DNA of 64,000 bases from Candidatus Omnitrophota bacterium (GCA_023819145.1 JAMWCW010000001.1:66400-130399); one strand, 5' to 3'; counted from the first letter of the stretch, positions 14,877 to 30,838 are shown. A program made the numbers and translations. The notes: a model not told the origin generated them from the letters alone.

Positions 14877-16064
14877 ATGAAAAATAGTAGAGGAAAGATT
14901 TATGTTATGTTTTTGGGTTTGTTATTTTTCTTTCTTAACTCATTATTATATTTAGACTTATCTGCGGGATGCTCTTTCCGGCGAATCAAAACTCAACCTG
15001 CCAAAGAATCTGCGCTGGTGCTTTTTTTCCACGAATTAGGTAGAGAAGATATTTTTTTAGTGGGAGGAAAAGGGGCAAATTTGGGAGAACTTTCGCATAT
15101 TGCCGGGATAAGCGTTCCCGAGGGGTTTGTAGTTACCACCACCGCTTTTCAAAAATTTTTAGATGCCAACCCTGGATTACAAGATAAAATTATCAGGATT
15201 ATAAATAGTATAGATTGGGATACCCCTTCCAGTATAAACTCTGCTGCGGAAAAGATAAAAGAAGCGGTTTTGCGTGCGAACATGCCGCGAGAGATTATTG
15301 AGATGATTAAAGCAGGTTATGGCCATTTAGAAGAGATCTCCGGAATAAAGGATGTGCCCTGTGCTGTAAGAAGTTCGGGAGTTGCTGAGGATTCTCCTAA
15401 CTTTTCTTGGGCAGGTCAATTCCGCACTGAATTAAATCAGAGGGGAATATATCAGGTTTTAGAGGCGGTTAAATTAATCTGGGCAGAGTTGTATAATCCT
15501 GATGCCCTTACCTATGGACATCAGAATGGTATCGACCCGCGCAAATTTTCTATGGGAGTGGTAATTCAGCGGATGATAAATTCAGAGAAATCAGGAGTGG
15601 CTTTTGGACTGGAGTCCGATACAGGTTTTCGTGCCAATCCCGGAGGAATGGAAGGAGTTTTTTATATTGAAGGGGTTTATGGTTTAGGTGAAGGGATGGT
15701 GCAAAATATTCAAGAACCTGATGGATTTTTGGTAGTAAAGATGCCTAATGGTGAATTTAAAATTATTGAACGCATTTTCGGTTCCAAAAGAGAACAGATA
15801 GTTTATCGGTCTGGAATGAGTGGGACAGAGAAAACTTCGGTTCCCGAAGAATGGCGTCAGAGATGGGTTTTTTCAGAAGCAGAGGTGTTAGAGATTGCTC
15901 GTGCAGTTTTTGCCTTAAATAGCCACTATAATCATCCCCAGGATGTAGAATTTGCCTGGGAAGGAGGAAAACTATACATATTACAATCACGCAATGAGAC
16001 AGTTCATGCAGATAAACCAGTAGATTTAATTGAATGGAGAAAGTTTAGAATTAACCTTAAATGA
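14877..16064 (+). CDS. PEP-utilizing dikinase (PpsA/PPDK family) N-terminal nucleotide-binding domain protein, TM plus SFRRIKTQP leader
   Basis: FLVGGKGANLGELSHIAGISVPEGFVVTTTAFQKF is the PPDK_N / PEP synthase ATP-grasp signature. RBS AGGAGG 10 nt upstream. Confidence 0.65.
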   Translation: MKNSRGKIYVMFLGLLFFFLNSLLYLDLSAGCSFRRIKTQPAKESALVLFFHELGREDIFLVGGKGANLGELSHIAGISVPEGFVVTTTAFQKFLDANPGLQDKIIRIINSIDWDTPSSINSAAEKIKEAVLRANMPREIIEMIKAGYGHLEEISGIKDVPCAVRSSGVAEDSPNFSWAGQFRTELNQRGIYQVLEAVKLIWAELYNPDALTYGHQNGIDPRKFSMGVVIQRMINSEKSGVAFGLESDTGFRANPGGMEGVFYIEGVYGLGEGMVQNIQEPDGFLVVKMPNGEFKIIERIFGSKREQIVYRSGMSGTEKTSVPEEWRQRWVFSEAEVLEIARAVFALNSHYNHPQDVEFAWEGGKLYILQSRNETVHADKPVDLIEWRKFRINLK

Positions 16065-18471: not shown

Positions 18472-18486
18472 CCGGGAAAAACCGAC

Positions 18487-18580
18487 CCCACCTCGTAGGT
18501 GTCCTTTTCACTGTATTGTAAGTTGTTTTTATATGGATACTTATGTGGGACGATTTTGGCCACCTACGAGGTGGGCACGG
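18487..18580. repeat. REP-like inverted-repeat doublet (REPIN-like), copy A
   Basis: ccccacctcgtaggtgtcc ... (~55 nt) ... ggccacctacgaggtgggcacgg. The arms are reverse complements and contain the GTAG tetranucleotide typical of REPs. Same arms recur at 29475-29566 and 30283-30377. Confidence 0.6.
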
Positions 18581-18948
18581 TTAGTTTTGGTTTGGGTGTG
18601 GGTTGAGGAAAGTAGATTTTGGGTTGAGGAGTTAGATTAAGGAAAAATAAAAAACAGAATAGAATGTTTTGAGGTGTAAAGAAAGTTTACCCCCACAATG
18701 ATAGAAGATGTCAGTGTAAGTAGATATTTATCAGTAACTTATGGATAGATGCTCTTAGAATGTAATTTTAATTTACTTTCTTATTTGCCTTATGAAAAAA
18801 GGAGGAAGATAAATTTTCTTGTTTTATAGTCGGAAAAATCTGTCTTTGGTGATTATCTAATATTCTGGCATAAATTTTGCTTACTCTAGTAACAGAAAAA
18901 ATGTCAGAATTAAAAATTGAAATAAGAAAATTTTTACCATCTCTGCCA

Positions 18949-18977
18949 TTGACGATAAGAGAAAGATGTGATATAAT
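18949..18977 (+). promoter_or_regulatory. Sigma70-like promoter TTGACG-N17-TATAAT upstream of the YD-repeat gene
   Basis: cattgacgataagagaaagatgtgatataat; canonical spacing. Confidence 0.45.
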
Positions 18978-19001
18978 TTATATAGAGAATAATAATAAAT
19001 A

Positions 19002-22000
19002 ATGAATAAAATAATAAAAATGATAAATATGGAAAAGAAGAGAAAATATATTCTTATCTTTTTGGGACTATTTTTGCTTATTAGTGCCTATGTAGAGGCA
19101 AAGGTGCGTACTCAAGTAATTCGCAATAGCCCCGTCCCGGAAAGAAATGTGGGAATTATTCCTGAGGCGCGTTCGGTAGAAGACTGGGCACGGGTGAGAA
19201 CTCAGGTTATAAAAGAAACAGAAAGGAGAAACCGTCAAATAGAGACCAGCCAGAATCTTCCCGATAAAATGGAAGATAGCCGGAGAGAGACAGAAGAGGA
19301 ACGCCTCAAATCCGCTTACAAAATAGAAAAAGATGCTCGGGAGATGAAACAAAAAATAGAGCAGGCTTCTCCCAATGAGGTGGTAGGAGAAAATCCCGAT
19401 GGGACAAAATGGTATCAATACTCAGGAAGATTTGACATCTTCAAGAACTGGATAAAAAACAAACTCAAAGAACTTGGCCTCTTGGATAAATGGAAGGGTG
19501 AAAGTTTTGAGGAATTAGTTCAAAAATATGGTAAAACCAATTTTGACCTCACCTTCAACAAAAAATCTTGGTCTTATTTTGGTAAGCGCTCCTCGACTCT
19601 GCAAACCACAGAATTTCAATTTAGTTTAACCAATCCCGAAGATAATTTTGAAAAATATATTCAGACGCGCTCGCGTCAATTAATCTGGGATAGCGCCAAT
19701 AATCGCGAGGCAGAAATTGTGCAACATACTATAACCGATGAGATAGAATGGGCAGGTAAGTTCTATGGCACGCCGGGAAAAACCGAACAAGGAAGGCAGA
19801 TGCTTTCTTCTCGCCAGAGAACTTGGGATGAGACCAGGGGAACTTATTCTGAGGTAAACCAGAGAAATGTCTATGAAGGGAATTTCCATATGCCCATTAA
19901 GACCATCCGCAAGGTCTTTGAATCGGGCTACGATACTAAAGGCAATTACTATGAACGCCGATACGAGATGACCCGTGAGAATATTGAATGGGCGTGGGTT
20001 GTTTCAAGTGACCCAATTTCTGGCGGAAGTTATGAAACAAAGAGCTTTGACCAGACGATGATTGATTATTCCACGCCTGATAAAAAGACAATTTCCCACC
20101 ATGAGTTTACTTATACTGATGATGGAGTTCCGGAAAGTCAATTGATTGTTAGCCGAGAAGTTGGTTTAGGGCTAAATCATATTTCAGTAAGTTTAGAAAG
20201 ATATCTTGACTACTACAAAGATGGTTCTTTGCGCCAAGGACTGAGTCTTGATCTCACTGGTGATTTTCCTGACGTATATACCGCCGTAAAAGAAGGAAGA
20301 ACTTTACAGAATTTAATCAATAATAAAGAAACAAAGTCGCAAATCGAAGCACAGTTGGGACGCAGTTTAAACTTGAACAATCCTCAAGATTTAAAAATCT
20401 ATACCGCTTATCTGAGGGAAGGATTGGGGGAAACAGCAAGAAAAATCAGTTTGAGTTTTGCCGAGAAGAAACACAATGACAAAGCATTCCTTGCCTGGGA
20501 AAAAGAGACAGTTGCCATTGAAGGAAAAGATGAAAATGGGAGCCTGATTAGTTCTAGCAGTGAAATAGAAAAAACTTATACCCAGTTCTTACCCTTTGGT
20601 CAACCCACAGAGATTGAGCAACTGATAAGAAGCGAAGCCACACCAAATGTAGAAACAAAATTAAAGATTTCTTTAAAATACAACAAGTATTGTCAGGTAA
20701 CTGAACAGAGAACCGAAACGCGAGAAACAAGCCTTGATGGCAAACTTAATAAACACACGATAAGCATAAAAGATAAAATTGTTTACAATGGTTTAGGACA
20801 GGAAATTTCCTATCGTGAGCGAGAAGAAGAATATGATATAGATGGAAAGCGCATTGGCAATCGTGAAACTTTAGTAAAAAATATTACCTATAATGAAGAT
20901 GGCTTGCAGACCGGTTACGAGATGCAGAGCATAACCAGAGGAATTGATACTCATGATGGAAGTATTTTTGAGATAATTACTGAAACAAAAGTGCGCGATA
21001 TCCGATATAATGAATTGGATATGCGTATATCCTGGAAGGAGATAAGTATAGATTTAAGCAGAAGCCCGGGATTAATTAGTGAGAGAATGTATCAGGTAAA
21101 GGCAATAGATGAATTTGGAAGAATTACGGAGATAGATATAAAAGAACACACTTATGGCACTGCTTCCGATGGAACCTCTCTAAATACTGAACGCACCATT
21201 AACCGCAAGATAAAATACAACTCTTTAGGTCAGGAAGAAGAGGCAATTGAGGAGGTAATTGAGAAGGCAAAGACCACTATCTCAACCATTAAATATGCCT
21301 ATGACCAGTATGGGAGAATTTCGCGCGAAGAAAGAAAAGTGCATGTAACGGGGAAAGATGGAGATAGCGAATTGGACTATACTTATACTCTATTGCGCTA
21401 TGGATTTGAGTACAATGATGCAGGACTTCTACAGAGATATAAGGCTAAAATCCGGAATGAATCTACAGCCGATATAGAAATAACTCAGGAGGTAGAGATT
21501 GGCTATGACAGTCTGGGAAGAGTAGATTATCAGAAGACTCAAGTCTGGGAAGATACGCGAAGCGGAGATAAGGCCTTACACAAATACACACTTACCGTAA
21601 GGGAAAACATTACCTATAATGAATTAGGATTAGAGACAGCTTATACTGAAACAGAGGAGGAATTTGATGAAGATGGAAAACGCATTGGCAATCGTAAGGT
21701 TAAGGTAAGTAACATTACTTATAATGAAGATGGTTTGCAGACTGGTTATGACATGGCGGTAATAGTAGAAGGGACTGATACCCATGACGGAAGTAGTTTT
21801 GAAACCTTTACCGAGATTAAAGTGCGCGATATTCGTTACAACAATTTAGGCATCCGCATTAGTTGGAGAGAAACCACCATAGATACAAGTAGGAGTCCAG
21901 GATTAACTACCGAAAGAAAATACGCGGTTACAGAGATAGATAGGTTTGGTAGACCTATAGAGCTTATAATCAATGAGCATGCTTATGGCTCTGCTTCTGA

Positions 22001-23138
22001 CGGGACAAGTTTAGATACCTTCCGCAAGATTACACGCCAGATAACCTACAATTCTTTAGGTCAGGAAGAGGAAATTACTGAAACCGTAGAAGAAGGGGCA
22101 AAGAAAACCACTTCCAAGATTAAGTACGAATACGATGAATGTGGCAGGATTAAATATGAAGAAAGAAATATTCATGTAGAGGGCGAAGAAGAGGGGGTTG
22201 AGTTGGATTATATTTCTACAATAAGGCGTTATGGATTTAAATACAATGATGCAGGGCTTGTACAGGGCTATACGGCAGAAATCTGGAACGAGTCCAGTCC
22301 CGACTTAGAAATAAAGCAGGAGGTAGAATTTGGCTATGACAGTCTGGGAAGAATAGACTATCAACGAAGCGAAACCTGGGAAAAGGGAATAAGTAAAAAG
22401 CGCGATAAACATGGTGAACCTACAGGCGAGGAAGAAGAGGTTGAACGGCATACAATTTCTGAGAAATATGATATCCAATATAATGAATTGGGCTTGGAAA
22501 CTTATTATAAAACCGATAGAAAAGAATACGAGGATGGAGAGTTAATCCGCGATGTTACCGAGACCACTTCGGGAATAAGGTATGATAGTAAGGGAAGAAT
22601 GACTGAATACACCACCCATAGAACTGGTCAAGAGAGATTCCTTGAAGACAGTGGAGAATATGGGGAATTAAAGAGTGTAAATATTACTACCCATATTTAC
22701 AACATTACCTATGTTGATGGTCTGGATTTAAGAAAATCCTGGAGAGAAGAAATTTCTGGTTATATAGGGGGACAGGAATTTAAGGCAAGCACCCGTCAAT
22801 ATGAAATCTTAGAATTTGACCGCTTTGGAGAAGTGGTAGATATAAATATTGAAGGAGATGGAGTGGAGGAGGAAAATTCTGCTCCTCAGATTGATACGCG
22901 GGGAACAACTTCTGGCCCAGAAGTTAATCAGACCACCAGACCTTACTCTCCGACAGGTTCAATAAAGACAACAAGTGTTCGTCGGGGACCAGTAAGAGGT
23001 TTAGGAGTGCGCGGAAAAAGTAGAACTTATGCAAAAAGACCTTCCGGAATAAGTCTTTTGAGTAGTGAATCCAGTCAGCGTAAGAAATTAGAAGAGGAAG
23101 CAGAATATATTACGCCAGATAAAGAAGAAGAAAAATAG
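19002..23138 (+). CDS. Large secreted YD/RHS-repeat protein (1378 aa) with internal tandem duplication
   Basis: N-terminal signal-like helix. Many YD-type repeats (ITYNEDGLQTGY, IRYDSKGRMTEY, YGFEYNDAGLLQRY, IGYDSLGRVDYQ, KYEYDECGRIKYE). No recognisable RHS core or toxin tip. Low-complexity basic/Ser-rich C-terminus. Confidence 0.55.
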   Translation: MNKIIKMINMEKKRKYILIFLGLFLLISAYVEAKVRTQVIRNSPVPERNVGIIPEARSVEDWARVRTQVIKETERRNRQIETSQNLPDKMEDSRRETEEERLKSAYKIEKDAREMKQKIEQASPNEVVGENPDGTKWYQYSGRFDIFKNWIKNKLKELGLLDKWKGESFEELVQKYGKTNFDLTFNKKSWSYFGKRSSTLQTTEFQFSLTNPEDNFEKYIQTRSRQLIWDSANNREAEIVQHTITDEIEWAGKFYGTPGKTEQGRQMLSSRQRTWDETRGTYSEVNQRNVYEGNFHMPIKTIRKVFESGYDTKGNYYERRYEMTRENIEWAWVVSSDPISGGSYETKSFDQTMIDYSTPDKKTISHHEFTYTDDGVPESQLIVSREVGLGLNHISVSLERYLDYYKDGSLRQGLSLDLTGDFPDVYTAVKEGRTLQNLINNKETKSQIEAQLGRSLNLNNPQDLKIYTAYLREGLGETARKISLSFAEKKHNDKAFLAWEKETVAIEGKDENGSLISSSSEIEKTYTQFLPFGQPTEIEQLIRSEATPNVETKLKISLKYNKYCQVTEQRTETRETSLDGKLNKHTISIKDKIVYNGLGQEISYREREEEYDIDGKRIGNRETLVKNITYNEDGLQTGYEMQSITRGIDTHDGSIFEIITETKVRDIRYNELDMRISWKEISIDLSRSPGLISERMYQVKAIDEFGRITEIDIKEHTYGTASDGTSLNTERTINRKIKYNSLGQEEEAIEEVIEKAKTTISTIKYAYDQYGRISREERKVHVTGKDGDSELDYTYTLLRYGFEYNDAGLLQRYKAKIRNESTADIEITQEVEIGYDSLGRVDYQKTQVWEDTRSGDKALHKYTLTVRENITYNELGLETAYTETEEEFDEDGKRIGNRKVKVSNITYNEDGLQTGYDMAVIVEGTDTHDGSSFETFTEIKVRDIRYNNLGIRISWRETTIDTSRSPGLTTERKYAVTEIDRFGRPIELIINEHAYGSASDGTSLDTFRKITRQITYNSLGQEEEITETVEEGAKKTTSKIKYEYDECGRIKYEERNIHVEGEEEGVELDYISTIRRYGFKYNDAGLVQGYTAEIWNESSPDLEIKQEVEFGYDSLGRIDYQRSETWEKGISKKRDKHGEPTGEEEEVERHTISEKYDIQYNELGLETYYKTDRKEYEDGELIRDVTETTSGIRYDSKGRMTEYTTHRTGQERFLEDSGEYGELKSVNITTHIYNITYVDGLDLRKSWREEISGYIGGQEFKASTRQYEILEFDRFGEVVDINIEGDGVEEENSAPQIDTRGTTSGPEVNQTTRPYSPTGSIKTTSVRRGPVRGLGVRGKSRTYAKRPSGISLLSSESSQRKKLEEEAEYITPDKEEEK
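20810..22460 (+). repeat. Two tandem ~830-bp (~277-aa) repeat units inside the YD-repeat gene
   Basis: gatggaaagcgcattggcaatcgt at 20841 recurs as gatggaaaacgcattggcaatcgt at 21671. The protein segments align colinearly at roughly two-thirds identity by eye. Confidence 0.6.
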
Positions 23139-23395
23139 AAAAAAAATTACGGAGGATAACAAAAATCTTTCATTTTAAGTAATTGTAATTAAATAGTTTA
23201 AAAATTAATTTTATAAGCATGTAACTTAAGTTTACAATTATTAAACATTTTAGGGAGGAGAAAAAAGAGAGATAAAAAATGTAAATTTAATTATATTAAT
23301 TACTTATAAATGACGATGATTTTAGAGGAAAATTGGCATTAAACTTGCTTATATAAAGATGAAAAATTAAAATTTTGAAAAAAGGAGGGTAAAAA

Positions 23396-26300
23396 ATGAA
23401 AAAGACAAGATTTTTACTAAACCGGGCCGGGGGAATTTTAATACTTTTCTTAATTTTGGCTTTTACAAAGCCGGGAGAGGGATTATTTTTTACTGGTGAT
23501 GACCCTACTCAATACCATATGAGTACTGGATGCGGGATGTATGGTAATGGTTGTAATGCTTTTGGGGATCAAGAACGGCAAACTCCAGGCTTACTGAGGC
23601 AAATGAGTTCGTCACCGGCGTCTATTCAATTTAAGGACGGAATTCCAGTGACAGGGGATTCAGTGAGGTGGTCTCTTTTCGATCTGGATAATGATGGTAA
23701 TGTTGATTGTTATATAGATGAAAGTGGAAATAGATATTTAAAAACTATAACCTCAGATGGCATAATAACAGGTTATATTTTAGCAAAAAATCTTGAAAAT
23801 GGAGATTTAGATGTTCAAGTATATGGATATACTCAAACTTCAGGTTATTTTCCTATAATTCCTATAGAACCACTTGATCACACAGAACAGAATACTCAGG
23901 TAGTTGAAACACAATACCGTTTAGTGGCACATTTTAAAGTAGACCAAGCCGCTGGGCTTAATTCTTTAATAAAAGCTATTTTAGATGATACTCGCCTGCA
24001 ATCATTCCTTCAAAAATTTGATCCCAATATGAATAGTATGCTTAATGTGGGTGGCCAACAACTGAAGTTAGTTGAAAGTTTTACATATAACGATACAGAC
24101 TCTGAATGGAATAAAAATGACCAGGAGGAAAAATATTACTCCTCTATAAATGGATATTTAAAAAGGGAGGTAATTTCTGGAAAGGAATATTATTATGTCT
24201 ATAATTCCGACTATACCTTAGCTGCGCGCTATACAAAAGATACTAGTGGTGATATCACAAGCTTGACATTTATTACTCCTTCTGGAGGAGCTTTTGAGCG
24301 AGGTAAGTTAATTAGTGGGACTGAATATGAATTATCCGGGGCTTCCTTGGGGTATCTGAAGGGCTTATCGGAACTCTCGCTAAATATAAATAATATAGGT
24401 TCTTTAATGGAAAAATCTGCAATAATAGCGGGAACCTCATGGCTTAAGTTAGGCGAAAACCACTATTTTCAGCTTAAAAAAGGAACAATTGAGCAGGTAG
24501 TAACTGTAACTGTAGCAGACGATGGAAAATCTTCTTCTTTAACTTTGCAAAGGCTCAAATTGGAAGATGATAAATTGGTAGTAGTAAATGGTCAGTCAAT
24601 AACTGTTTCCAACGCGCTTTTAACTGGCAAGTTGCCAAGCGGATACTTAGATTCCTCAATTACTTCCCCTAAAGTCTTAGACCTTATTTTAAAAGGAGCC
24701 TCCATAGATTACACTCATCAGAGAATTTATTTTGATTATACAGGAAAGACTTATGCTTATGATGTTACTGGAGAAGGCTTACAGTATTATTATGTTTATT
24801 ATATGGGCGGAGGAAATACATTACCATTATTACAAATTTATGGTCCTGATACTAATATAACAACTGAAAACCCTGATTTAACTTTAACTGTGCCACAAGA
24901 ATTAAAAATCACTAATTTTACTTTTAATGTTAAAGGAACTAGCGCTACATTATCTTTCCAAGCAGATGGTAAAGAATACACATATAACCTTCCTACTAGT
25001 AAAAATGGTTCTTTTACCTTGAGTATTGATCCCCAAGCCACTGGTGCAGGGGTAATTGCACCTACTATTAAAATACTACCACCCGCATTAAGCGAGGAGC
25101 AAAAAAGATGGATTGCTAGTATTTTGGGTCTAGAAGACGATCCGGGTGGTCGAACAGCCGTACAACAATTGGATAATTTATTGGGAGATTCCCAAAATTA
25201 TTTTGTAACTGGTAATTATTTTGGGATTCAATCAGGAGAGAGTATTTTTATATTTAATACTTCCTCACTAAGTGCAGGTAGTAGATATCTTAAATTTGAT
25301 GGTAAAAATCTAATAATTAATGAGGGTACTACAACTATAACTATAGGAGATTTCGCTAAAGTTTTAAAGAGTCTAGGATTCTCTGCTTGGCTGGATGCTT
25401 TTAAATCTATGGAGGAAGATTCTCTGAGGACCCTTTTTGGACTAAATCCGAGCAATTCAGCCAATTTCACACTTGCCTTTGAGAAGATTATTACTGAGGC
25501 GCAGAAAGAGTTTTATAATTTCTCGTTTGAGAAAGACACAAGTGGTAGTAATTATTCGCCTAGGGGATATGCTAAGGCTATGTTGGATAATTCCCGATCT
25601 GTTGTTGTTGTTGAGTTTTATATTAGTGATGGGGATAGTTTCACCAAAGTTTTAGGATTTGATAGACCTACATTACTGCAAATATTAGATAGATCAGAAA
25701 CCTTTGAAGGCTTGTATGAAAAAGCTAAGGGATTTGTCAGGAATATTAGTTATGTAAAAAGGTTAGATGGAACTTATGTTTGGGTATGTAGTATAGGTAA
25801 TAAGTTTGTTCAATTTTATTCTATTGGAGGAGGAAGTGAATGGTGGGCATTGGCTGTTGATGCTACTGGTGATGTTACTGTATATGATAGCGGATGGGAG
25901 ATAAAATATACAATTGCTAAAATAGAGTTAGAATCGTCACCATCACCAAGCGTTGATTTAGTAAAAAGCCTAATTTTTGATGAGCAAACATTGCATCTTC
26001 TTCGGTTAAGTATAGAGCAAAGAGGAGACGGTGGTGTAACAGGTGTAACAATCCAAAGAAACAAAATAGAAGTGTGGGAACTGAAAAAAGCTTCGGCGAA
26101 TAGTAATGCGTTAAAGAGGATAGAAAAATTTACTTTGCTTGGAGAGGAATCTGTGGTAGCAGGAAGGGCGACCCCACTTGATCCAGAGCCAGTTATTGAA
26201 TTCGGCAGTAGAAAAATAAAGGAAATCCAATTTACCAATTTTGCGGGGATGGTAACCTTCGCTCGAGGAATTAGTTTTAAGACTCAGGGTGATAAAAGTT

Positions 26301-29300
26301 ATCTGATTTTAGGAGGAAAAATTTATGAGCTTTCTTTAGCAGAAGATGGATCAATCTTTACAATTAGCCAAACTCCTATTATTACGATTGAGCAACAAAC
26401 TTGGGAAGCAATAAGAACACTTATTGCTTACGAGCGGACAAATACTGGAAGTGTAACTGGCCCGAGTGCAATTGGCTGGGCTGATATTAGTATAGTAATA
26501 GAAAAAGAGGACAAAGTGTACTTTGAGGTGCCAGTGAAATCAATTGATGAGGGAAGATATGTATTGAGATTTGATAGTAAGGGACAATTAATTAAGAGAG
26601 ATGGTGCAGTATTGAGTTTTACTCCCACAGATTCAGATGAATCCCAAAAAGCAGAAAGCTTTAAAACATTTTTGCAAAATAATGTAGGCAATCTTCCTTT
26701 ATCTGCAGCAGGCAAAGCCTATGAGAGATTTTGTTCACAGTTGGCAATTGCTGGTGTGGCTAAAGTAGATTGGGAGATATTTCTTCGTAGCTGGAATGAA
26801 GGGGCAAAAACTCTTGAAGGCTTTAGTGACCCCGGATGGGGTGGGGGACTTAGTAGGAGCGAACTTATCGCGGCATTGGAGCTTAGTGATGAGCAGAAAC
26901 AACAGCAGTTGCGTAGAATTGAGGCTACAGATATAAATGGGTTTAATAAATATCTTTATATTGATGACAAGGGAAATATAGTTTATGTAGAAGAACTACC
27001 TGATCCCTCGAAAGGAAAATATAAAGGATATTTATTAAGGTATCAGTGGAATGATTCTGCTAATCCTCCGGAAGCGAATATTTCTGGAGTATTGGTAGGA
27101 GCTATGCAGCGTTCAACTTCACAAAATGTTTTATCACAAAATGTTTTATATGGAATAGTAGCAGAGGTTGATAATGGTGGGGGTTATGTAAAATTGAATG
27201 ATAAAGGATTTGAATTAAATTTAAATATTATATTTAAAGGTAATAACAAGGGGTATGAGAATCTTTTTGATTTTGAAACATACAAAATCGAAATCAAGGT
27301 TAGTAGAGTGGATAATACATTGACGCAGGTAGAAACAACGAATTGGGCTAATTCTAATGCGCAAAGATGGTATACGAGCTCTACCATTACTACAGTAGTA
27401 GGGCTACTGGAGGATGGGAAATTTGAAAAAAAGCGAGAAGAAAGGGTATTAAAAAATAATGAGGGGGAGCAAGAAACAATCACTTTTCCTGAATTTGATG
27501 GAAAAGGCAACCCCACTAAAAAACAGGTGCATTCTTTGAGGAAAGTCGATATTGAGGGTTGGGAATGGAGAGAGGATAATTATACAGAGACAGGAACTCT
27601 TAACAGTAATCAACAATGGGTGAGGAAAGGTTATGAACCTAATACTCAAAGGACAATTAAGCTAAGTAGAGGAAATGGGGATTATCTACAGCAGGAGTAC
27701 TCTATAGATGGAAATGGAAAAGCAATCAGATGTGTTATTGAGGAAAAAAGAGGTTCGGTAACTGCCAAAGTAGAAGAAGAAGTAGTAGGTGAAGGGGATT
27801 TATTATTCTTAGGAGAGAATACACAACTTACCTTGAATATTAATGGAGATAGGATAGATCCCAAAACAGGACAAACGGTAAGTGTAAGTGGCAATAATGT
27901 AGTAAGGTCTGTTTATGTATTTAAGGACGAAGAGGTGGCAGCACTTAAACAGCAGGGCTTAACCATAAGGGCTGGTATTCCTTATATCCTTGATAAATAT
28001 GAAGATGGTTCGTTTAGAATATATACCGCATTTGTAGAACAAACATATCTTGATGCACAAGGAAAACCTAAAGCGTATTATGTGGCTGGAGAATATGTAG
28101 GAACCCTTGGTTCAAAAAAAGCCAGTGACGGTGCCAGTGGCGGAGGCGGTGGAGGAGGTGGAGGAGGTGGAGGAGGTGGACCGGCAGGAAGTGACAAAAT
28201 TCCTCCTTCACAAATAGCTAATCAGGATACAGGAGAGATTGTTGGTGGTATGGAAGGGCAATTAGATGGTTTTGTGAAAAGAAGCTATCCTGAGAGAGTA
28301 GAGGAATTAGCTCATACTTATCGGGCAATGGGTCCGGGAATGAAGGAGAGAGCACTTTCTATAAACGATAGAGATAGTGCCAGAATATATCTATTGGGGA
28401 GATTTCTTTCCAGAGATAAAATTAAACAAGTTCTTTCGGTTCTTAAAAATAAGAATCTTTCTATTGAGGAAAAACGCGCTTTACTTAAGAAACTGGGGCT
28501 TTCGGATAAATTGCTTGACTTACTCCTTAATGGTGATGAAGAAGCATTAATTAAAGAAGCTCAAAAAATGCTCCTTAAGGATTTCGGGCTTTCTGATGAG
28601 GAGATTGAAGAATTCTTCAAGAGCAGTGATAAAAAAGGATATTTGCAGAAGAAAGGACTTTCTGATGAACGCATTGAGGCGGTAATGGAGATAACAGATT
28701 TAGAGAAGGCTCAAGAGGCAATCCTTAATCAGGAGGCAGTTTTGGAAGAGTTGCTCAGTGAGGAAGAGAAAGCACTTATGGAGGAGCTTTTTGCTTTGTT
28801 AGAGGAATATACCGGATTTATTAGTGATGAAGAGTATGCGGAATTAAGGGAGATTTTGGTAGATTTGGGGCTTTCTGAGGAGACCATAGATGATTTAATA
28901 GGTAAAAATGCGGATGAGTTTATGAATAGTCAGTTGCGGAATTGGGCAATGATGGATGAGAAAAATATTCTTGAATTGGCAAGGATGCTTTTCTTTGATG
29001 AAGACTTAAAGTTAGATAAATGGACTGCGGAGTTTATTGTAAAAGGTGATGAGTTTATGGTAAATGAGCTCTTAAGTAAAATTAGACAAGCAGTAAAAGA
29101 GTATCTTGAAGAGTATTGGGGTAAAGAGGTCAGTGAAGAAGAAGTTAAAGGTTTGGATGAGGCGACTAGAGAGAAAATTGCCGATGCTTTACTGCAAGCG
29201 ATAGGTAGAGGAGGACTTACGCTGGAAAATGCTTCTAAAAAAGTAAAGGAAATTCTTGCAGAGATTATCCCTTTGAAGGAAGCGAAAGAGGAGAAGAGCC

Positions 29301-29443
29301 CTATTCAGCCAGCACCTTCTCCGGAACCGTTACAGCCACAATCTCTTGCTGCGGTAAGTATTCAGGGTAACTGGAGGAGCAAAAATAATGATGATGATAT
29401 TCCGCGGTTGTTAAGAGAAAAAAATGAACTCAGAAGCAGATAG
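23396..29443 (+). CDS. Giant secreted protein (2015 aa) with poly-Gly linker and C-terminal acidic helical GLSDEE-type repeats
   Basis: Signal-like N-terminus, DxDxDG-like FDLDNDGNVD, a run of 14 Gly, then repeated LGLSDExIEE / GLSEETIDDL motifs. RBS AAAGGAGGG. No catalytic motif recognised. Confidence 0.5.
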   Translation: MKKTRFLLNRAGGILILFLILAFTKPGEGLFFTGDDPTQYHMSTGCGMYGNGCNAFGDQERQTPGLLRQMSSSPASIQFKDGIPVTGDSVRWSLFDLDNDGNVDCYIDESGNRYLKTITSDGIITGYILAKNLENGDLDVQVYGYTQTSGYFPIIPIEPLDHTEQNTQVVETQYRLVAHFKVDQAAGLNSLIKAILDDTRLQSFLQKFDPNMNSMLNVGGQQLKLVESFTYNDTDSEWNKNDQEEKYYSSINGYLKREVISGKEYYYVYNSDYTLAARYTKDTSGDITSLTFITPSGGAFERGKLISGTEYELSGASLGYLKGLSELSLNINNIGSLMEKSAIIAGTSWLKLGENHYFQLKKGTIEQVVTVTVADDGKSSSLTLQRLKLEDDKLVVVNGQSITVSNALLTGKLPSGYLDSSITSPKVLDLILKGASIDYTHQRIYFDYTGKTYAYDVTGEGLQYYYVYYMGGGNTLPLLQIYGPDTNITTENPDLTLTVPQELKITNFTFNVKGTSATLSFQADGKEYTYNLPTSKNGSFTLSIDPQATGAGVIAPTIKILPPALSEEQKRWIASILGLEDDPGGRTAVQQLDNLLGDSQNYFVTGNYFGIQSGESIFIFNTSSLSAGSRYLKFDGKNLIINEGTTTITIGDFAKVLKSLGFSAWLDAFKSMEEDSLRTLFGLNPSNSANFTLAFEKIITEAQKEFYNFSFEKDTSGSNYSPRGYAKAMLDNSRSVVVVEFYISDGDSFTKVLGFDRPTLLQILDRSETFEGLYEKAKGFVRNISYVKRLDGTYVWVCSIGNKFVQFYSIGGGSEWWALAVDATGDVTVYDSGWEIKYTIAKIELESSPSPSVDLVKSLIFDEQTLHLLRLSIEQRGDGGVTGVTIQRNKIEVWELKKASANSNALKRIEKFTLLGEESVVAGRATPLDPEPVIEFGSRKIKEIQFTNFAGMVTFARGISFKTQGDKSYLILGGKIYELSLAEDGSIFTISQTPIITIEQQTWEAIRTLIAYERTNTGSVTGPSAIGWADISIVIEKEDKVYFEVPVKSIDEGRYVLRFDSKGQLIKRDGAVLSFTPTDSDESQKAESFKTFLQNNVGNLPLSAAGKAYERFCSQLAIAGVAKVDWEIFLRSWNEGAKTLEGFSDPGWGGGLSRSELIAALELSDEQKQQQLRRIEATDINGFNKYLYIDDKGNIVYVEELPDPSKGKYKGYLLRYQWNDSANPPEANISGVLVGAMQRSTSQNVLSQNVLYGIVAEVDNGGGYVKLNDKGFELNLNIIFKGNNKGYENLFDFETYKIEIKVSRVDNTLTQVETTNWANSNAQRWYTSSTITTVVGLLEDGKFEKKREERVLKNNEGEQETITFPEFDGKGNPTKKQVHSLRKVDIEGWEWREDNYTETGTLNSNQQWVRKGYEPNTQRTIKLSRGNGDYLQQEYSIDGNGKAIRCVIEEKRGSVTAKVEEEVVGEGDLLFLGENTQLTLNINGDRIDPKTGQTVSVSGNNVVRSVYVFKDEEVAALKQQGLTIRAGIPYILDKYEDGSFRIYTAFVEQTYLDAQGKPKAYYVAGEYVGTLGSKKASDGASGGGGGGGGGGGGGGPAGSDKIPPSQIANQDTGEIVGGMEGQLDGFVKRSYPERVEELAHTYRAMGPGMKERALSINDRDSARIYLLGRFLSRDKIKQVLSVLKNKNLSIEEKRALLKKLGLSDKLLDLLLNGDEEALIKEAQKMLLKDFGLSDEEIEEFFKSSDKKGYLQKKGLSDERIEAVMEITDLEKAQEAILNQEAVLEELLSEEEKALMEELFALLEEYTGFISDEEYAELREILVDLGLSEETIDDLIGKNADEFMNSQLRNWAMMDEKNILELARMLFFDEDLKLDKWTAEFIVKGDEFMVNELLSKIRQAVKEYLEEYWGKEVSEEEVKGLDEATREKIADALLQAIGRGGLTLENASKKVKEILAEIIPLKEAKEEKSPIQPAPSPEPLQPQSLAAVSIQGNWRSKNNDDDIPRLLREKNELRSR
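28138..28180 (+). repeat. (GGA/GGT)n simple sequence repeat encoding a poly-Gly tract
   Basis: ggcggaggcggtggaggaggtggaggaggtggaggaggtgga. Confidence 0.7.
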
Positions 29444-29474
29444 GTTAAACAAAAGTAATTAACCCCAAACCCCT

Positions 29475-29566
29475 GCCCACCGCGTAGGTGGGCATTTTTT
29501 CTTGACATAAGCTTATAAATTTGCTATATTTATTATAGAGTTTAAGGGACACCTACGCGGTGGGAT
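29475..29566. repeat. REP-like inverted-repeat doublet, copy B, with embedded promoter for the RAYT gene
   Basis: gcccaccgcgtaggtgggc ... ggacacctacgcggtggga. TTGACA-N17-TATATT (29502-29530) sits in the loop. Confidence 0.6.
29502..29530 (+). promoter_or_regulatory. Sigma70-like promoter TTGACA-N17-TATATT inside REP doublet B
   Basis: cttgacataagcttataaatttgctatatt. Confidence 0.45.
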
Positions 29567-29622
29567 AGGTTTTATTAATTATAGGAGAGTATAAAGAAGT
29601 TAACGAGAGTTAAGGAGAAAAA

Positions 29623-30276
29623 ATGAGAAAGAATTTTCTGGCAGTAGGAGAAATTTATCACGTGTTGAATAAAAGTATTGCGGGTTTTCAGATTTTTAAC
29701 GATGAAGATGAATATCAGCGAATGGCTGGGCTTTTTGCCTATTATCAAAAAGAGAATCCTCCAGTTAAGTTCTCTAAGTATTTAAATTCCAATAAAAAAG
29801 GTTCTGAGGGGGAGAATACAGGAAATAAATTAGTGGAAATTATCGCCTATTGTCTTATGCCTACCCATCTTCATCTCTTATTGAGACAGATGAAAGAAGA
29901 AGGGATTTCTCTTTTTATGGGAAATGTTTTAAATAGCTACACCCGCTATTTTAATACCCGACATAAGCGCAAAGGACCTCTCTGGGAGGGTAGATTTAAA
30001 AGAATTCAAGTAAAAACCGAGGAAAATTTATTGCACCTTACCCGCTATATCCATCTTAATCCGGTTACAGCGTATCTGGTGAACAAGCCCGAGGATTGGC
30101 TTTTTTCTTCTTATCGAGAGTATTTAGGTCAGGTTGATGGTAAGGAGAAAATTTGCAATTTTGAAGATTCTTTAGAGATAGGCCCTGACTATAAAGAATT
30201 TGTGGAAGATAGAATTTCTTACCAGAGAGAACTTGCTCAGATTAAAGATTTAATAGTTGAAAACCTCTCCACCTAA
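29623..30276 (+). CDS. REP-associated tyrosine transposase (RAYT; IS200/IS605-family Y1 HuH transposase)
   Basis: AYCLMPTHLHLLL (HuH motif), catalytic Tyr region NSYTRYFN, and GPLWEGRFKRI...YIHLNPV...WLFSSYREY fit the Y1_Tnp / RAYT fold. Flanked on both sides by REP doublets. Confidence 0.7.
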   Translation: MRKNFLAVGEIYHVLNKSIAGFQIFNDEDEYQRMAGLFAYYQKENPPVKFSKYLNSNKKGSEGENTGNKLVEIIAYCLMPTHLHLLLRQMKEEGISLFMGNVLNSYTRYFNTRHKRKGPLWEGRFKRIQVKTEENLLHLTRYIHLNPVTAYLVNKPEDWLFSSYREYLGQVDGKEKICNFEDSLEIGPDYKEFVEDRISYQRELAQIKDLIVENLST

Positions 30277-30282
30277 ACCTTA

Positions 30283-30377
30283 GACCACCTCGTAGGTGTC
30301 CTAAATCGATGATTATAAGTGTAAGAAATTATGTAGCTTATGATGAAGGAAATAGACCACCTACGAGGTGGGTACGG
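30283..30377. repeat. REP-like inverted-repeat doublet, copy C
   Basis: gaccacctcgtaggtgtcc ... gaccacctacgaggtgggtacgg, immediately after the RAYT stop codon. Confidence 0.6.
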
Positions 30378-30439
30378 TTTATAACGGTAGGAAAAGGAAG
30401 GAAGAAGAGGAAAGGTAAGTGAGAGGAGGAAAGAGGGAG

Positions 30440-30838
30440 ATGAAAAAAAGAATTCTGTTTTTGGGGATGGTTGGAGTATTATTGAGTTTTGTTTCTTGTG
30501 GAAAGGCAAAAGAGGAAGTTTACGAATCAGAGACAAAGGCAAGCGAAGAGGTGAAAATAGCTATGGTAGAGGAGGGAGAAATGGCCCAGAAACCTGAACT
30601 AAAATATGTGGAAGGAGAGCTTTTAGTAAAGTTTAAACCCGAAGTTTCTGCAGAAGAGATAATTACGATCCTCAAAGACGAATATCAATGCGAGATTATT
30701 GATATTATAAAAGGATTAGATGTTTACAGGATAAAAATGCCCAAAGGAAAAACTGTCCCCGAGATGGTGGAGTTATTGAGTAAAGATGAACGGGTGAAAT
30801 ACGCCGAACCTAACTATATCTATCGCTTACAGATGTAG
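30440..30838 (+). CDS. Lipoprotein with subtilisin-propeptide (inhibitor I9)-like domain
   Basis: Signal plus lipobox-like LLSFVSC. ELLVKFKPEVSAEEI...VYRIKMPKG...VKYAEPNYIYRL matches the I9 propeptide pattern ending in veYvEPdy. Confidence 0.45.
   Translation: MKKRILFLGMVGVLLSFVSCGKAKEEVYESETKASEEVKIAMVEEGEMAQKPELKYVEGELLVKFKPEVSAEEIITILKDEYQCEIIDIIKGLDVYRIKMPKGKTVPEMVELLSKDERVKYAEPNYIYRLQM

What the first reader, a model, noticed from the sequence alone, without database searches (positions are those of the whole stretch)
18487..30377. REP doublets (REPINs) plus a RAYT transposase bracketing an island with two giant surface-protein genes
Three inverted-repeat doublets with the same 15-20-nt arms (CCACC[T/G]CGTAGGTG / CACCTACG[A/C]GGTGG, GTAG-containing) and non-conserved ~55-nt loops occur at 18487-18580, 29475-29566 and 30283-30377. 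The latter two immediately flank a Y1 HuH transposase with RAYT motifs (HLHLL, YTRYF). This is the classic RAYT/REPIN arrangement. Here it delimits an ~11 kb segment carrying the YD-repeat protein and the 2015-aa protein, suggesting a recombination-prone or horizontally acquired island. Doublet B contains a canonical promoter driving the RAYT.
Basis: partly seen in the sequence, partly recalled or inferred. Interest (0 to 1): 0.6.

Follow-up and report, generated by a model that had tools for sequence, protein, structure and literature searches.

The report
Tyrosine nuclease gene with hairpin repeats
A single-copy, apparently domesticated "transposase" gene in an Omnitrophota genome is flanked by copies of a short DNA hairpin that it probably recognises; this is a non-canonical member of the known REP/RAYT type of system, and it does not mark a foreign gene island.

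Summary
Three inverted doublets with arms CCACC[T/G]CGTAGGTG lie at 18480-18582, 29467-29572 and 30276-30379. The arm-to-arm offset is 73 nt in each, and chance expectation is 0.14 matches against 6 found. Two doublets flank a 217-aa Y1 HuH gene.

- The protein is RAYT/TnpA-REP-like (HuH H82/H84, Tyr142 in RYIHLNP), but it scores below NCBI's RAYT cut-off. Its motifs fit best the "REP-less" subclass 2.1 / group 1.
- The repeat unit is a mini-hairpin (CCACC-TCGTA-GGTGG) with an AACC head 4-5 nt upstream. It is not a canonical GTAG-footed REP.
- The same hairpin flanks homologs (52-72% identity) in 8 of 9 other lineages examined, in MAGs labelled Omnitrophota, Hippea, Scalindua, Brocadiaceae and Tritonobacter.
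- The doublet loops are diverged copies of one sequence that carries the gene's promoter, so the doublet behaves as a REPIN-like unit.
- Copy number looks low: one dispersed doublet in 64 kb.
- The "island" idea fails. Both giant genes, the nuclease gene and the downstream operon are syntenic in related lineages.
- No YD/Rhs repeats were found, and "YTRYF" is not the catalytic tyrosine motif.

Verdict: a new, atypical member of a known kind, of modest interest.

The parts
18480..18582 (.). Doublet A. Layout: AACC(18480-83)-N4-CCACCTCGTAGGTG(18488-18501), a 59-nt loop, then CCACCTACGAGGTGG(18560-74)-N4-GGTT(18579-82). It starts 9 nt after the stop codon of the PEP-synthase C-terminal ORF. It is the only copy in the window that is not next to the nuclease gene.
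   Evidence: CM hits of 25.9 and 36.1 bits. ssDNA fold -22.6/-25.1 kcal/mol, z -4.7/-6.4. The loop is homologous to loops B (inverted) and C.
29467..29572 (.). Doublet B, lying between the 2015-aa gene and the nuclease gene. The left hairpin TGCCCACCGCGTAGGTGGGCA plus a T-run (29474-29500) looks like an intrinsic terminator. The right arm is at 29549-29563, and the outer stem is AAACC(29467-71)/GGTTT(29568-72).
   Evidence: terminator-like, 8 pairs. (z -4.8/-4.2). CM hits of 33.6 and 27.1 bits. The loop is colinear with the upstream region of the ortholog in L010 (z 6.9).
29502..29530 (+). Promoter-like site TTGACA-17 nt-TATATT with a TG extension, inside the loop of doublet B. It lies 93 nt upstream of the nuclease ATG; an AAGGAG ribosome-binding site precedes the ATG.
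   Evidence: 11 of 12 matches. The same hairpin / T-run / TTGACA arrangement occurs upstream of the orthologs in L010 and L014, and a TTTACA site occurs in L009.
29623..30276 (+). RAYT/TnpA-REP-like Y1 HuH nuclease gene, 217 aa. Key residues are HuH H82-L-H84, W121, catalytic Y142 in RYIHLNP, N146 and an SSY tail motif.
   Evidence: Pfam Y1_Tnp 33.9 bits. NCBIfam REP_Tyr_transpos 67.5 bits against a cut-off of 80. Best PDB match is 4er8 TnpA-REP, E=3e-4. Residues are invariant in 31 homologs. P0001 is 100% identical and labelled Candidatus Omnitrophota MAG.
30276..30379 (.). Doublet C. Layout: AACC(30276-79, overlapping the TAA stop of the nuclease gene)-N5-CCACCTCGTAGGTG(30285-98), a 59-nt loop, then CCACCTACGAGGTGG(30357-71)-N4-GGTT(30376-79). 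It lies upstream of the Fervidolysin-Npro-like ORF.
   Evidence: CM hits of 32.5 and 31.0 bits. Fold z -6.3/-5.6. The loop is homologous to B in inverted orientation (z 5.6) and to A (z 4.5).

Best explanation
This is a REPtron/TIRtron-type locus. It consists of a single-copy, vertically inherited (domesticated) Y1 HuH single-strand DNA nuclease of the RAYT/TnpA-REP class, together with its cognate repeat. The repeat unit is a short hairpin, 5'-AACC-N4-5-CCACC-TCGTA-GGTGG-3'. The top five stem pairs and the asymmetric loop are sequence-conserved, and the lower stem is kept by compensatory changes. In this genome the units occur as ~103-nt inverted doublets that fold into one long hairpin when single-stranded. 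All three doublets descend from one ancestral doublet whose loop carries the nuclease gene's promoter, so the doublet was copied as a unit, as a REPIN would be. Inferred mechanism, by analogy with E. coli TnpA-REP and IS608 TnpA: the protein binds the folded hairpin on single-stranded DNA, reads the loop and upper stem, cleaves nearby through Tyr142 with the HuH-bound metal, and can rejoin strands. The conserved AACC head is the best candidate for a guide or cleavage site. This would occasionally copy or rearrange units. Secondary roles are inferred from position. The left hairpin of doublet B plus its T-run would terminate the upstream giant gene. The loop promoter would drive the nuclease gene. 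Doublets A and C, which start 9 nt after one stop codon and on top of another, would act as terminators or 3' stabilisers. What is shown: repeat anatomy, hairpin covariation, protein class and catalytic residues, repeat-gene association across lineages, shared ancestry of the loops, and synteny. What is inferred: binding, cleavage, mobilisation and the transcriptional roles.
For: Repeat significance and geometry. The unit hairpin shows covariation: pair 16-28 changes CG to AU in 4 copies, pairs 13-31 and 14-30 use UA, CG and GC, and 0 of 500 shuffles and no slid control reach the observed score. An AACC head occurs in 31 of 71 units against 4.0 +/- 1.9 expected, and in all six window arms. It is retained even where the hairpin sequence has changed (L032 and L019). 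Protein class. The same hairpin lies on both sides of homologs in L009, L010, L012, L014, L017, L034 and, partly, L019; L032 has a different cognate hairpin in the same positions. There are 24 hairpins within +/-400 bp of 8 genes, against 6 in the other 159 kb. Loop homology. Long ssDNA hairpins with z -4.2 to -6.4. Conserved synteny of the gene at 65-72% identity, and the identical protein P0099 in the same context in the six places shown out of 24 contigs read. No paralog in the window and none in viral contigs. Biochemistry of the reference enzyme: PMC3479197 and PMC8266576.
Against: No biochemical evidence exists for this clade. The protein is below the curated RAYT threshold. The E. coli GTAG-contacting residues other than W are not conserved (alignment, residue list). 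The structure model is poor (pLDDT 54) and the fold search is non-significant. Only one dispersed doublet occurs in 64 kb, and the loops are only ~50-58% identical, so any mobilisation is rare or ancient. No insertion polymorphism was seen. The source genome outside the window could not be searched. Inverted doublets of this geometry are rare in public data: 9 stretches among GTDB species genomes (spacer 50-70 nt) and 4 among metagenome contigs (spacer 55-63 nt).
Confidence: 0.6

Rival explanations
1. The hairpins are mainly operator or regulatory sites for a domesticated nuclease with a host DNA-metabolism role. The protein binds hairpins that bracket its own promoter and terminator (autoregulation), and the few dispersed copies are by-products rather than a maintained repeat population.
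For: Hairpins are ~50-fold concentrated at the gene. The promoter is sandwiched between two hairpins in the window, L010 and L009. Homologs sit among DNA-metabolism genes: dprA-X-topA-xerC in L032, ligA-X in L019 and nadC-X-uvrB in L012. Bertels et al. report only ~12 occurrences of the flanking 16-mer for group 1 (PMC5581495).
Against: Dispersed copies and tandem or inverted clusters far from any nuclease gene exist in several genomes (L002, L004, L006-L008, L028, L031, L034). Doublets A and C are whole-unit copies of B, which needs a copying process. No regulatory data exist.
Confidence: 0.2
2. It is an autonomous IS200/IS605-like insertion sequence: a transposase gene bounded by left- and right-end subterminal hairpins on one strand.
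For: In L010, L014, L017 and L034 the flanking hairpins are in the same orientation on the coding strand, like IS608 ends. The protein hits Pfam Y1_Tnp. The top-ranked fold hits, although non-significant, are IS200/ISDra2 TnpA structures.
Against: The gene occupies the same slot (giant genes / X / Fervidolysin-Npro / OEP-RND) in lineages only 65-72% identical. There is one copy per locus and no paralog in the window. No tnpB is adjacent. The Tyr motif is Y-x3-NP (class 2), not the Y-x3-Q of IS200 (Table 1 of PMC6006769). Units without a gene are dispersed. None were found in viral contigs.
Confidence: 0.07
3. One reading: REPIN doublets A and B delimit an ~11-kb recombination-prone or horizontally acquired island that carries the two giant surface-protein genes.
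For: The doublets do bracket the two giant genes. The middle of the 2015-aa protein has no counterpart in relatives. The number of giant genes differs between lineages: one seen in L010, whose contig starts 306 nt upstream of that gene; three in L014. The order of the S8-peptidase and PEP-synthase genes upstream differs from relatives.
Against: The 1378-aa protein is 76% identical over 800 aa to the protein in the corresponding position of L014/L016. The 2015-aa protein shares its N- and C-termini (41% and 62-63%) with the next gene there. GC is 0.32-0.41 inside against 0.36-0.44 outside, with no sharp boundary. Hairpins also follow the PEP-synthase/S8 block in relatives (L029, L031), so the position of A is an old intergenic site. 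Doublet B is simply the 5' flank of the nuclease gene.
Confidence: 0.05
4. The hairpins are ordinary intrinsic terminators or mRNA-stabilising stem-loops, and their association with the nuclease gene is incidental.
For: All three doublets start at or within 23 nt of a stop codon on the coding strand. Several arms score as terminator-like, with a T-run after the left arm of B.
Against: An identical 15-nt core including the loop sequence is conserved next to homologs that are only 52-72% identical, in genomes with 35-55% GC. Terminators do not conserve loop sequence across lineages. Units occur on both sides of the gene, in both orientations and in tandem arrays.
Confidence: 0.04

Closest known systems
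REPtron of Escherichia coli: TnpA-REP/RAYT (YafM, PDB 4ER8) with REP/BIME/REPIN repeats (TnpA-Y1 subclass 2.2, Bertels group 2)
   Same: Both have a single-copy Y1 HuH gene with the HuH motif, a conserved W and a Y-x3-NP tyrosine motif. In both, the gene is flanked on both sides by inverted pairs of its own palindromic repeat, further copies lie in intergenic regions, and the gene is inherited vertically. 4ER8 is the best PDB match.
   Different: The match is weak: 23.6 bits to 4er8, and below the NCBIfam RAYT cut-off. The protein is longer (217 vs 165 aa) and has a variable insert at residues ~50-70. The repeat is a 5-7-bp mini-hairpin with a conserved loop and an AACC head 4-5 nt from the foot, rather than a long bulged stem with GTAG at its 5' foot. 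Copy number appears far lower. The same repeat core is shared by MAGs labelled as different phyla, whereas canonical REPs differ between related species.
TnpA-Y1 subclass 2.1 (Quentin et al. 2018) = RAYT group 1 (Bertels et al. 2017), probably the TIRYT/TIRtron of Di Nocera et al. 2013
   Same: It is the best motif match: Y[IV]HLNP, W[EQ], a tail with conserved SS, and a length of about 220-240 aa (against Table 1). Shared behaviour includes low copy number, a housekeeping-like distribution and modest counts of flanking repeats. Di Nocera describes flanking inverted repeats that are partly self-complementary and sometimes occur as dimers or clusters.
   Different: The HuH motif is T-H-x-H, invariant in this clade, not N-H-x-H. 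No Bac_DnaA_C/HTH C-terminal domain was detected. The GGGGWSAS motif is absent from the flanks. Quentin et al. found no REP-like sequences for subclass 2.1, whereas here a structured, covarying hairpin family is obvious. Placement by phylogeny was not done.
REPINs of Pseudomonas fluorescens (Bertels and Rainey 2011)
   Same: Both consist of two inverted REP units at a fixed distance that form a long hairpin. In both, the doublet rather than the single REP is the copied unit, and a cognate RAYT is flanked by them.
   Different: Only three copies were seen, with loops ~50-58% identical (old copies), rather than hundreds of near-identical copies. The loop is long (59 nt) and derives from the nuclease promoter region. 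In sister lineages the same units stand as singles, direct pairs or tandem arrays.
IS200/IS605 insertion sequences (IS608, ISDra2)
   Same: They share the Y1 HuH fold family and recognition of subterminal DNA hairpins on single strands. They also have a conserved tetranucleotide 5' of the hairpin that serves as a guide or cleavage determinant, which is the model for the proposed role of AACC.
   Different: Here the Tyr motif is Y-x3-NP rather than Y-x3-Q. There is no tnpB, the gene sits at a fixed chromosomal position, it is single-copy, and the same hairpin occurs at both ends and elsewhere without a gene.

Membership tests
RAYT / TnpA-REP (class 2 TnpA-Y1) | HuH metal-binding motif | tested here: met
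   H82-L-H84 aligns with H59-M-H61 of 4er8 and is invariant in 31 homologs.
RAYT / TnpA-REP (class 2 TnpA-Y1) | Catalytic Tyr in a Y-x3-N-P motif (the class 2 signature in PMC6006769) | tested here: met
   Y142-I-H-L-N146-P aligns with Y115...N119-P of 4er8. Y142 is invariant; N146 and P147 are nearly invariant.
RAYT / TnpA-REP (class 2 TnpA-Y1) | Scores above the curated NCBIfam equivalog model NF047646 (REP-associated tyrosine transposase) | tested here: not met
   67.5 bits against a cut-off of 80, and only residues 68-162 are matched. Pfam Y1_Tnp is passed (33.9 vs 23 bits).
RAYT / TnpA-REP (class 2 TnpA-Y1) | Gene flanked by its cognate palindromic repeat (REPtron layout) | tested here: met
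   In the window, doublets B and C flank the gene. The same hairpin lies on both sides in L009, L010, L012, L014, L017 and L034. L019 has the core hairpin upstream and a loop variant downstream. L032 has a different hairpin on both sides.
RAYT / TnpA-REP (class 2 TnpA-Y1) | Single copy, vertically inherited, fixed chromosomal position | tested here: met
   The same gene slot is used in L010 (72% id) and L014-16 (65% id). P0099 is in an identical context in the six places shown out of 24 contigs read. No paralog occurs in the window. The whole source genome was not available.
RAYT / TnpA-REP (class 2 TnpA-Y1) | Cleaves and rejoins single-stranded cognate REP DNA | not testable with these tools
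   Needs biochemistry.
Canonical REP sequence | 5' GT[AG]G tetranucleotide at the foot of the hairpin | tested here: not met
   GTAG spans loop positions 3-5 and the first base of the 3' stem (CCACC-TC[GTA-G]GTGG). The conserved 5' element is AACC, 4-5 nt from the core.
Canonical REP sequence | Palindrome able to form a stem-loop, supported by compensatory change | tested here: met
   79% of cells are paired against 34-53% for slid controls, with compensatory changes at pairs 16-28, 14-30 and 13-31.
Canonical REP sequence | High copy number (usually more than 100 per genome), dispersed in intergenic DNA | tested here: inconclusive
   Three doublets occur in 64 kb, and only one is away from the gene. 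In related loci there is about 1 unit per 26 kb away from the gene. The source genome is not in the searchable collections.
REPIN | Two REPs in inverted orientation at a fixed distance, folding into one long hairpin | tested here: met
   The offset is 73 nt in all three. The ssDNA folds have a ~15-bp arm stem plus a 5-bp outer stem, z -4.2 to -6.4.
REPIN | The doublet including its spacer is the replicated unit | tested here: met
   The loops of A, B, C and the L004 doublet are homologous (z 3.4-5.6). A and C are inverted relative to B.
REPIN | A population of many similar copies within the genome | tested here: inconclusive
   Only 3 copies were seen, and their loops are diverged. Doublets with a 55-63-nt spacer are rare in public metagenome contigs (4 stretches). 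Among the 9 stretches with a 50-70-nt spacer in species genomes, 2 have the 73-nt offset.
TnpA-Y1 subclass 2.1 / RAYT group 1 / TIRYT | Motif set Y[IV]HLNP, W[EQ], SS tail, median length ~238 aa | tested here: met
   YIHLNP, W121-E, S162-S163-Y and 217 aa, compared with Table 1 of PMC6006769.
TnpA-Y1 subclass 2.1 / RAYT group 1 / TIRYT | HuH written N-H-[VYF]-H | tested here: not met
   P-T-H-x-H, with T81 invariant in all 31 sequences.
TnpA-Y1 subclass 2.1 / RAYT group 1 / TIRYT | C-terminal HTH-like domain (Bac_DnaA_C, HTH_23 or HTH_28 similarity) | tested here: not met
   The only Pfam hit is Y1_Tnp at E<=1e-3. Quentin et al. note that subgroup 2.1.2 is heterogeneous, so this feature is not decisive.
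TnpA-Y1 subclass 2.1 / RAYT group 1 / TIRYT | Flanking terminal inverted repeats with the motif GGGGWSAS | tested here: not met
   There is no match within the flanks of the gene. The nearest is at 30753, inside the next ORF, and the window-wide count is at chance level.
TnpA-Y1 subclass 2.1 / RAYT group 1 / TIRYT | Phylogenetic placement among reference members | not tested
   Reference sequence sets were not available in the tools.
IS200/IS605 insertion sequence | Y-x3-Q tyrosine motif; multiple near-identical copies; variable location; often tnpB | tested here: not met
   The Tyr motif is Y-x3-NP. The location is syntenic. There is no paralog in the window, and no tnpB-like neighbour in any locus.

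The most novel reading that the evidence does not exclude
A very large clade of subclass-2.1-like Y1 nucleases (more than 5,700 database proteins at E<1e-5), a subclass reported as REP-less, has its own cognate repeat family spanning several phyla. That family would be defined by an AACC head plus a 15-nt hairpin whose loop, not its foot, is sequence-conserved. In this Omnitrophota genome the mobilised unit would be a doublet that carries the nuclease gene's own promoter, that is, a promoter-bearing REPIN. This would give the largest RAYT group a candidate DNA substrate and a recognition mode different from the GTAG-foot model.
Probability: 0.3. Interest if true: 0.55.

Novelty: new member of a known kind. 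Interest (0 to 1): 0.35.

Why it matters
REP/RAYT systems have been studied almost entirely in Proteobacteria, and the largest RAYT-like group (group 1 / subclass 2.1) has no agreed DNA partner. This locus and its relatives offer a compact, testable candidate substrate: AACC-N4-CCACC-TCGTA-GGTGG. It is conserved beside proteins that have diverged to 52-72% identity, which makes in-vitro cleavage tests straightforward. For annotating this genome, the practical message is more modest. The three repeats are REP-like elements with likely terminator and promoter roles. The "transposase" is a fixed chromosomal gene, and the giant surface-protein genes are resident genes with variable cores, not a mobile island.

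Tried and rejected
(1) Finding the source genome for a whole-genome repeat census. The exact-protein look-up failed with the stop codon included. The GTDB species-genome scan and the metagenome scan did not return the source contig. P0001 shows only that the source is an Omnitrophota MAG with a 221-kb contig. A census was therefore impossible, and density was estimated from the window and related loci only.
(2) Structure. The AlphaFold model from a 31-sequence alignment had mean pLDDT 54. Foldseek against the PDB gave no hit with E<0.4, although IS200/ISDra2 TnpA structures ranked first. This is treated as inconclusive.
(3) YD/Rhs repeats in the 1378-aa protein. There was none in Pfam even at E<=1, nor in NCBIfam.
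(4) Rfam found no family anywhere in the window.
(5) Literature and catalogue searches for the hairpin core. Full-text hits were unrelated primers. The core is absent from the REP tables of Quentin 2018 and Di Nocera 2013 and from the Nunvar 2010 text. This is weak negative evidence, because figures are not searchable.
(6) Viral contigs contain no relative of the protein.
(7) The TIRYT motif GGGGWSAS is not present in the flanks.
(8) A compositional test for an island showed no clear boundary.
(9) CRISPR, integron attC and tRNA-related readings of the repeats were considered and dismissed from the anatomy: 24-33-nt tandem periods without spacers, no associated genes, and a palindromic core.

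Full report
**1. Observation**

The three doublets are real and lie at the stated positions.
- The 14-nt arm CCACCKCGTAGGTG occurs six times in the window, as three inverted pairs: 18488/18561, 29477/29550 and 30285/30358.
- Chance expectation is 0.14 matches, and none of 100 shuffles reaches six.
- The arm-to-arm offset is 73 nt in every pair.
- An alignment with flanks shows that the elements extend outwards to a weakly conserved AAACC...GGTTT pair.
- As single strands, each ~103-nt element folds into one long hairpin: a 5-bp outer stem, an internal loop, a ~15-bp arm stem and a ~55-nt loop. Both strands fold this way, with z -4.2 to -6.4.
- A covariance model built from 70 units finds only these six arms in the 64 kb; the next hit has E=0.14.

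**2. The unit is a mini-hairpin, not a canonical REP**

Each arm is itself a small palindrome: a CCACC/GGTGG stem around an asymmetric loop T(or G)CGTA. I collected 71 distinct copies from the window and from loci in other genomes.
- The loop and the top five pairs are nearly invariant.
- The next two or three pairs are kept by compensatory change (ttt/aaa, tgt/aca, gtc/gac, ggc/gcc).
- Counted on the 70 aligned copies, pair 16-28 switches CG to AU in four copies, and pairs 13-31 and 14-30 use UA, CG and GC.
- Overall 79% of cells are paired, against 34-53% when partners are slid. No shuffle (0 of 500) reaches the observed covariation.
It is not at the 5' foot of the hairpin, which is where canonical REPs have it (definitions in PMC2817692 and PMC6006769).
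- When units are oriented by the loop, a different tetranucleotide, AACC, lies 4-5 nt 5' of the core. It occurs in 31 of 71 units, against 4.0 +/- 1.9 after shuffling the flank (maximum 12), and in all six window arms. The mirror GGTT occurs on the 3' side in only 14 units.

**3. The protein**

ORF 29623-30276 (217 aa) gives the following matches.
- It passes Pfam Y1_Tnp (33.9 bits against 23).
- It hits NCBIfam REP_Tyr_transpos at 67.5 bits, below the cut-off of 80.
- Its best solved relative is E. coli TnpA-REP (4er8, E=3e-4), ahead of the ISDra2 TnpA structures.

In that alignment H82-L-H84 matches the HuH histidines H59/H61. Y142 and N146 in RYIHLNP match the catalytic Y115 and N119 (roles from PMC3479197). 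H82, H84, W121, Y142 and S163 are invariant in 31 homologs, and N146, P147 and S162 are nearly invariant.

Against the signatures in Table 1 of Quentin et al. 2018, the protein fits class 2 (Y-x3-NP). Within class 2 it fits subclass 2.1 (= Bertels group 1) best, through Y[IV]HLNP, W[EQ], the SS tail and a length of about 220-240 aa. Three features do not fit that subclass.
- The HuH motif is T-H-x-H rather than N-H-x-H.
- No HTH-like C-terminal domain is detected.
- The GGGGWSAS motif of TIRYT flanks is absent.

The subclass assignment is therefore an inference from motifs, not a phylogenetic placement. The AlphaFold model was too poor to use (pLDDT 54), and the fold search was non-significant.

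**4. The repeat-gene association is general**

The protein is 100% identical to a protein of a Candidatus Omnitrophota MAG (P0001). It belongs to a very large family: 5,748 hits at E<1e-5, nearly all 210-240 aa. I fetched genomic context for homologs of 52-72% identity.
- The same CCACC-NCGTA-GGTGG hairpin lies on both sides of the gene in six lineages: L009 (labelled Hippea), L010 and L014-16 (Omnitrophota), L012 (unlabelled), L017 (Scalindua rubra) and L034 (Brocadiaceae).
- In L019 (Tritonobacter) it lies upstream, and a loop variant (CCACC-CCGGA-GGTGG) lies downstream.
- In L032 both flanks carry a different hairpin (CCGAC-NCCGGGA-GTCGG), still preceded by AACC-N4. This is the pattern expected if protein and repeat co-evolve around a constant head.
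- Over eight gene-centred loci there are 24 hairpins within +/-400 bp of the gene and 6 in the remaining 159 kb (the model search agrees).
- Elsewhere the units form inverted pairs, direct pairs and tandem arrays with 24-nt or 33-nt periods, resembling BIMEs (L004, L006, L007, L008, L028, L031).
- Taxon labels are those of the MAG records and could include binning errors. However, the GC contents (35-55%, and up to 67% for one unlabelled metagenome contig that holds only a doublet) and the protein divergence show that the hosts are diverse.

**5. The doublets are copies of one unit**

The loops are not unrelated.
- B against C (inverted): z 5.6.
- A against B (inverted): z 4.6.
- A against C: z 4.5.
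- B is colinear with the region upstream of the ortholog in L010: z 6.9.
- A 73-nt-offset doublet on another contig of that same MAG (L004) is also related.

Ungapped identity of B with inverted C is about 58% (34 of 59, my hand count from the loop sequences printed), while the arms are nearly identical. The whole doublet was therefore duplicated, which is REPIN-like behaviour. The arms have since been held constant while the loops drifted.

Loop B contains TTGACA-17-TATATT with a TG extension (11 of 12 matches). The same hairpin / T-run / TTGACA arrangement precedes the orthologs in L010 and L014, so the promoter claim has comparative support. In A and C the hexamers have decayed (hand reading of the loop sequences). 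In L010 the second hairpin upstream of the gene is in direct, not inverted, orientation, so the small loop has been flipped or replaced in one lineage. This remains unexplained.

**6. Copy number**

The source genome outside the window could not be reached. The window holds a single dispersed doublet, A. Related loci give about one unit per 26 kb away from the gene. Extrapolated to a genome of a few megabases, that would be of the order of a hundred units, but this is a rough inference. Inverted doublets are rare in public data: 9 stretches among 185,579 species genomes (spacer 50-70 nt) and 4 among the metagenome contigs (spacer 55-63 nt). This is far from the hundreds of near-identical REPINs found in Pseudomonas. 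It is in line with the modest repeat counts reported for group 1 (PMC5581495).

**7. The "island"**

The order downstream of the gene (Fervidolysin-Npro-like, a ~240-aa protein, OEP, RND) is conserved in L010 and L014-16, with 61-84% protein identity. Upstream, the picture is as follows.
- The 1378-aa protein is 76% identical over 800 residues to the giant protein in the corresponding position of L014/L016.
- The 2015-aa protein shares its first ~85 residues (41%) and last ~400 residues (62-63%) with the next gene there, while its middle differs.
- L014 carries an extra fn3 gene.
- GC content shows no boundary.
- In relatives, hairpins also follow the PEP-synthase/S8-peptidase block (L029, L031).

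The segment between A and B is therefore resident and ancient, with variable surface-protein cores. It is not a REPIN-bounded acquisition. Neither giant protein has YD/Rhs repeats.

**8. Mechanism**

The following are shown: the anatomy of the unit and the doublet, covariation, the class and catalytic residues of the protein, the tight and recurrent gene-repeat association, whole-unit duplication, and vertical inheritance of the gene.

The following are inferred, by analogy with E. coli TnpA-REP and the IS608/ISDra2 TnpA enzymes (PMC3479197, PMC8266576). The protein binds the folded hairpin on single-stranded DNA, reads the loop and upper stem, and uses a nearby conserved tetranucleotide (here AACC rather than GTAG) to select or guide cleavage. 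It then forms a 5'-phosphotyrosyl link through Y142 and can rejoin strands, which would occasionally copy or rearrange units. Of the residues that contact GTAG in the E. coli enzyme, only W is conserved here. This is consistent with a different recognition mode.

From their positions, the elements probably also act in transcription. The left arm of B with its T-run would be a terminator, the B loop a promoter, and A and C 3'-end structures.

The main rival, which I rate at 0.2, is that the hairpins are chiefly operators of a domesticated nuclease. The evidence for it is the ~50-fold concentration at the gene, the bracketing of the promoter, and the DNA-metabolism neighbours in other lineages. 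The active-IS, plain-terminator and island readings are unlikely, for the reasons given under rivals.

**9. Comparison and novelty**

In kind, this is a REPtron/TIRtron, which is a known type of system. It is not a classic RAYT/REPIN case, for four reasons: the curated RAYT threshold is missed, the GT[AG]G foot is absent, abundance is low or unknown, and the protein resembles the subclass reported to lack REPs.

I found no description of this hairpin, or of RAYT/REP elements in Omnitrophota, in the searchable literature or REP catalogues. That is weak negative evidence. I file it as a new, atypical member of a known kind. There is a 0.3 chance that it represents the general, previously missed DNA partner of the largest RAYT-like group, which would be of moderate interest to specialists.

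Noticed in passing
window 14877-16064 and 16084-18471: The PEP synthase-like gene is split into two ORFs in different frames: PPDK_N (395 aa) and PEP-utilizers plus PEP-utilizers_C (795 aa). The closest homologs (73% and 65% identity) are single ~1,150-aa proteins. At the junction there is a TGA stop, then GGGGGAG as a ribosome-binding site and an ATG. The second ORF starts with a hydrophobic segment, so this looks like a genuine two-gene split rather than a sequencing frameshift.
   Followed up: partly
window 13735-14760; L029, L031: An S8-peptidase-like gene lies upstream of PEP synthase in the window but downstream of it in two relatives. In those relatives it is followed directly by the same hairpin: one copy in L029 and four tandem copies with a 33-nt period at the contig end in L031. 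This indicates a local rearrangement next to an old repeat site.
   Followed up: partly
window 23396-29443 and 19002-23138; L014/L016: The 2015-aa protein has conserved N- and C-termini but a non-homologous ~1,500-aa middle compared with its positional counterpart in L014. The 1378-aa protein is 76% identical over residues 521-1320. Neither has an informative Pfam domain, apart from a sub-threshold OmpA-like hit at residues 831-905 of the 1378-aa protein.
   Followed up: partly
L032 9965-9981 and 10648-10685; L019 4215 and 10693: Some lineages carry variant cognate hairpins: CCGAC-NCCGGGA-GTCGG in L032 and CCACC-CCGGA-GGTGG in L019. They occupy the same positions beside the nuclease gene and keep the AACC-N4 lead-in, which suggests protein-repeat co-evolution around a constant head.
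   Followed up: partly
L002 5533, 6200, 6220; L008 6416 (Omnitrophota MAG BS750m-G21): A second hairpin type, CAACC-TCGTA-GGTTG (a compensatory C-G to A-T change at the second stem pair), coexists with the CCACC type in one MAG. It may be a second repeat subfamily.
   Followed up: no
L010 4199-4284 versus window 29477-29563: Upstream of the orthologous genes the promoter-bearing loop is homologous. However, the promoter-proximal hairpin is in direct orientation in L010 and inverted in the window, so the 5-nt loop is flipped within an otherwise palindromic unit. The process that does this is unknown.
   Followed up: no
L032, L019, L012: In other lineages the nuclease gene sits among DNA-metabolism genes: dprA-X-topA-xerC-like, ligA-X-...-xerC-like and nadC-X-uvrB. 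This could be chance, or a hint of a host function in single-strand DNA processing.
   Followed up: no
window hairpin core; Table 1 of PMC2817692: Canonical Haemophilus and Enterobacter REPs read GTAG-GGTGGGC...GCCCACC. They share the string GTAGG(G)TGGG with this hairpin, but their CCCACC partner lies 3' of that string rather than 5' of it, as if the element were permuted.
   Followed up: no
window 18583-19001: A 420-nt intergenic region lies between doublet A and the 1378-aa gene. It has G/T-rich short repeats (gttttggtttgggtgtgggttgagg...) and a strong promoter-like site, TTGACG-17-TATAAT, at 18949-18977. It was not examined further.
   Followed up: no
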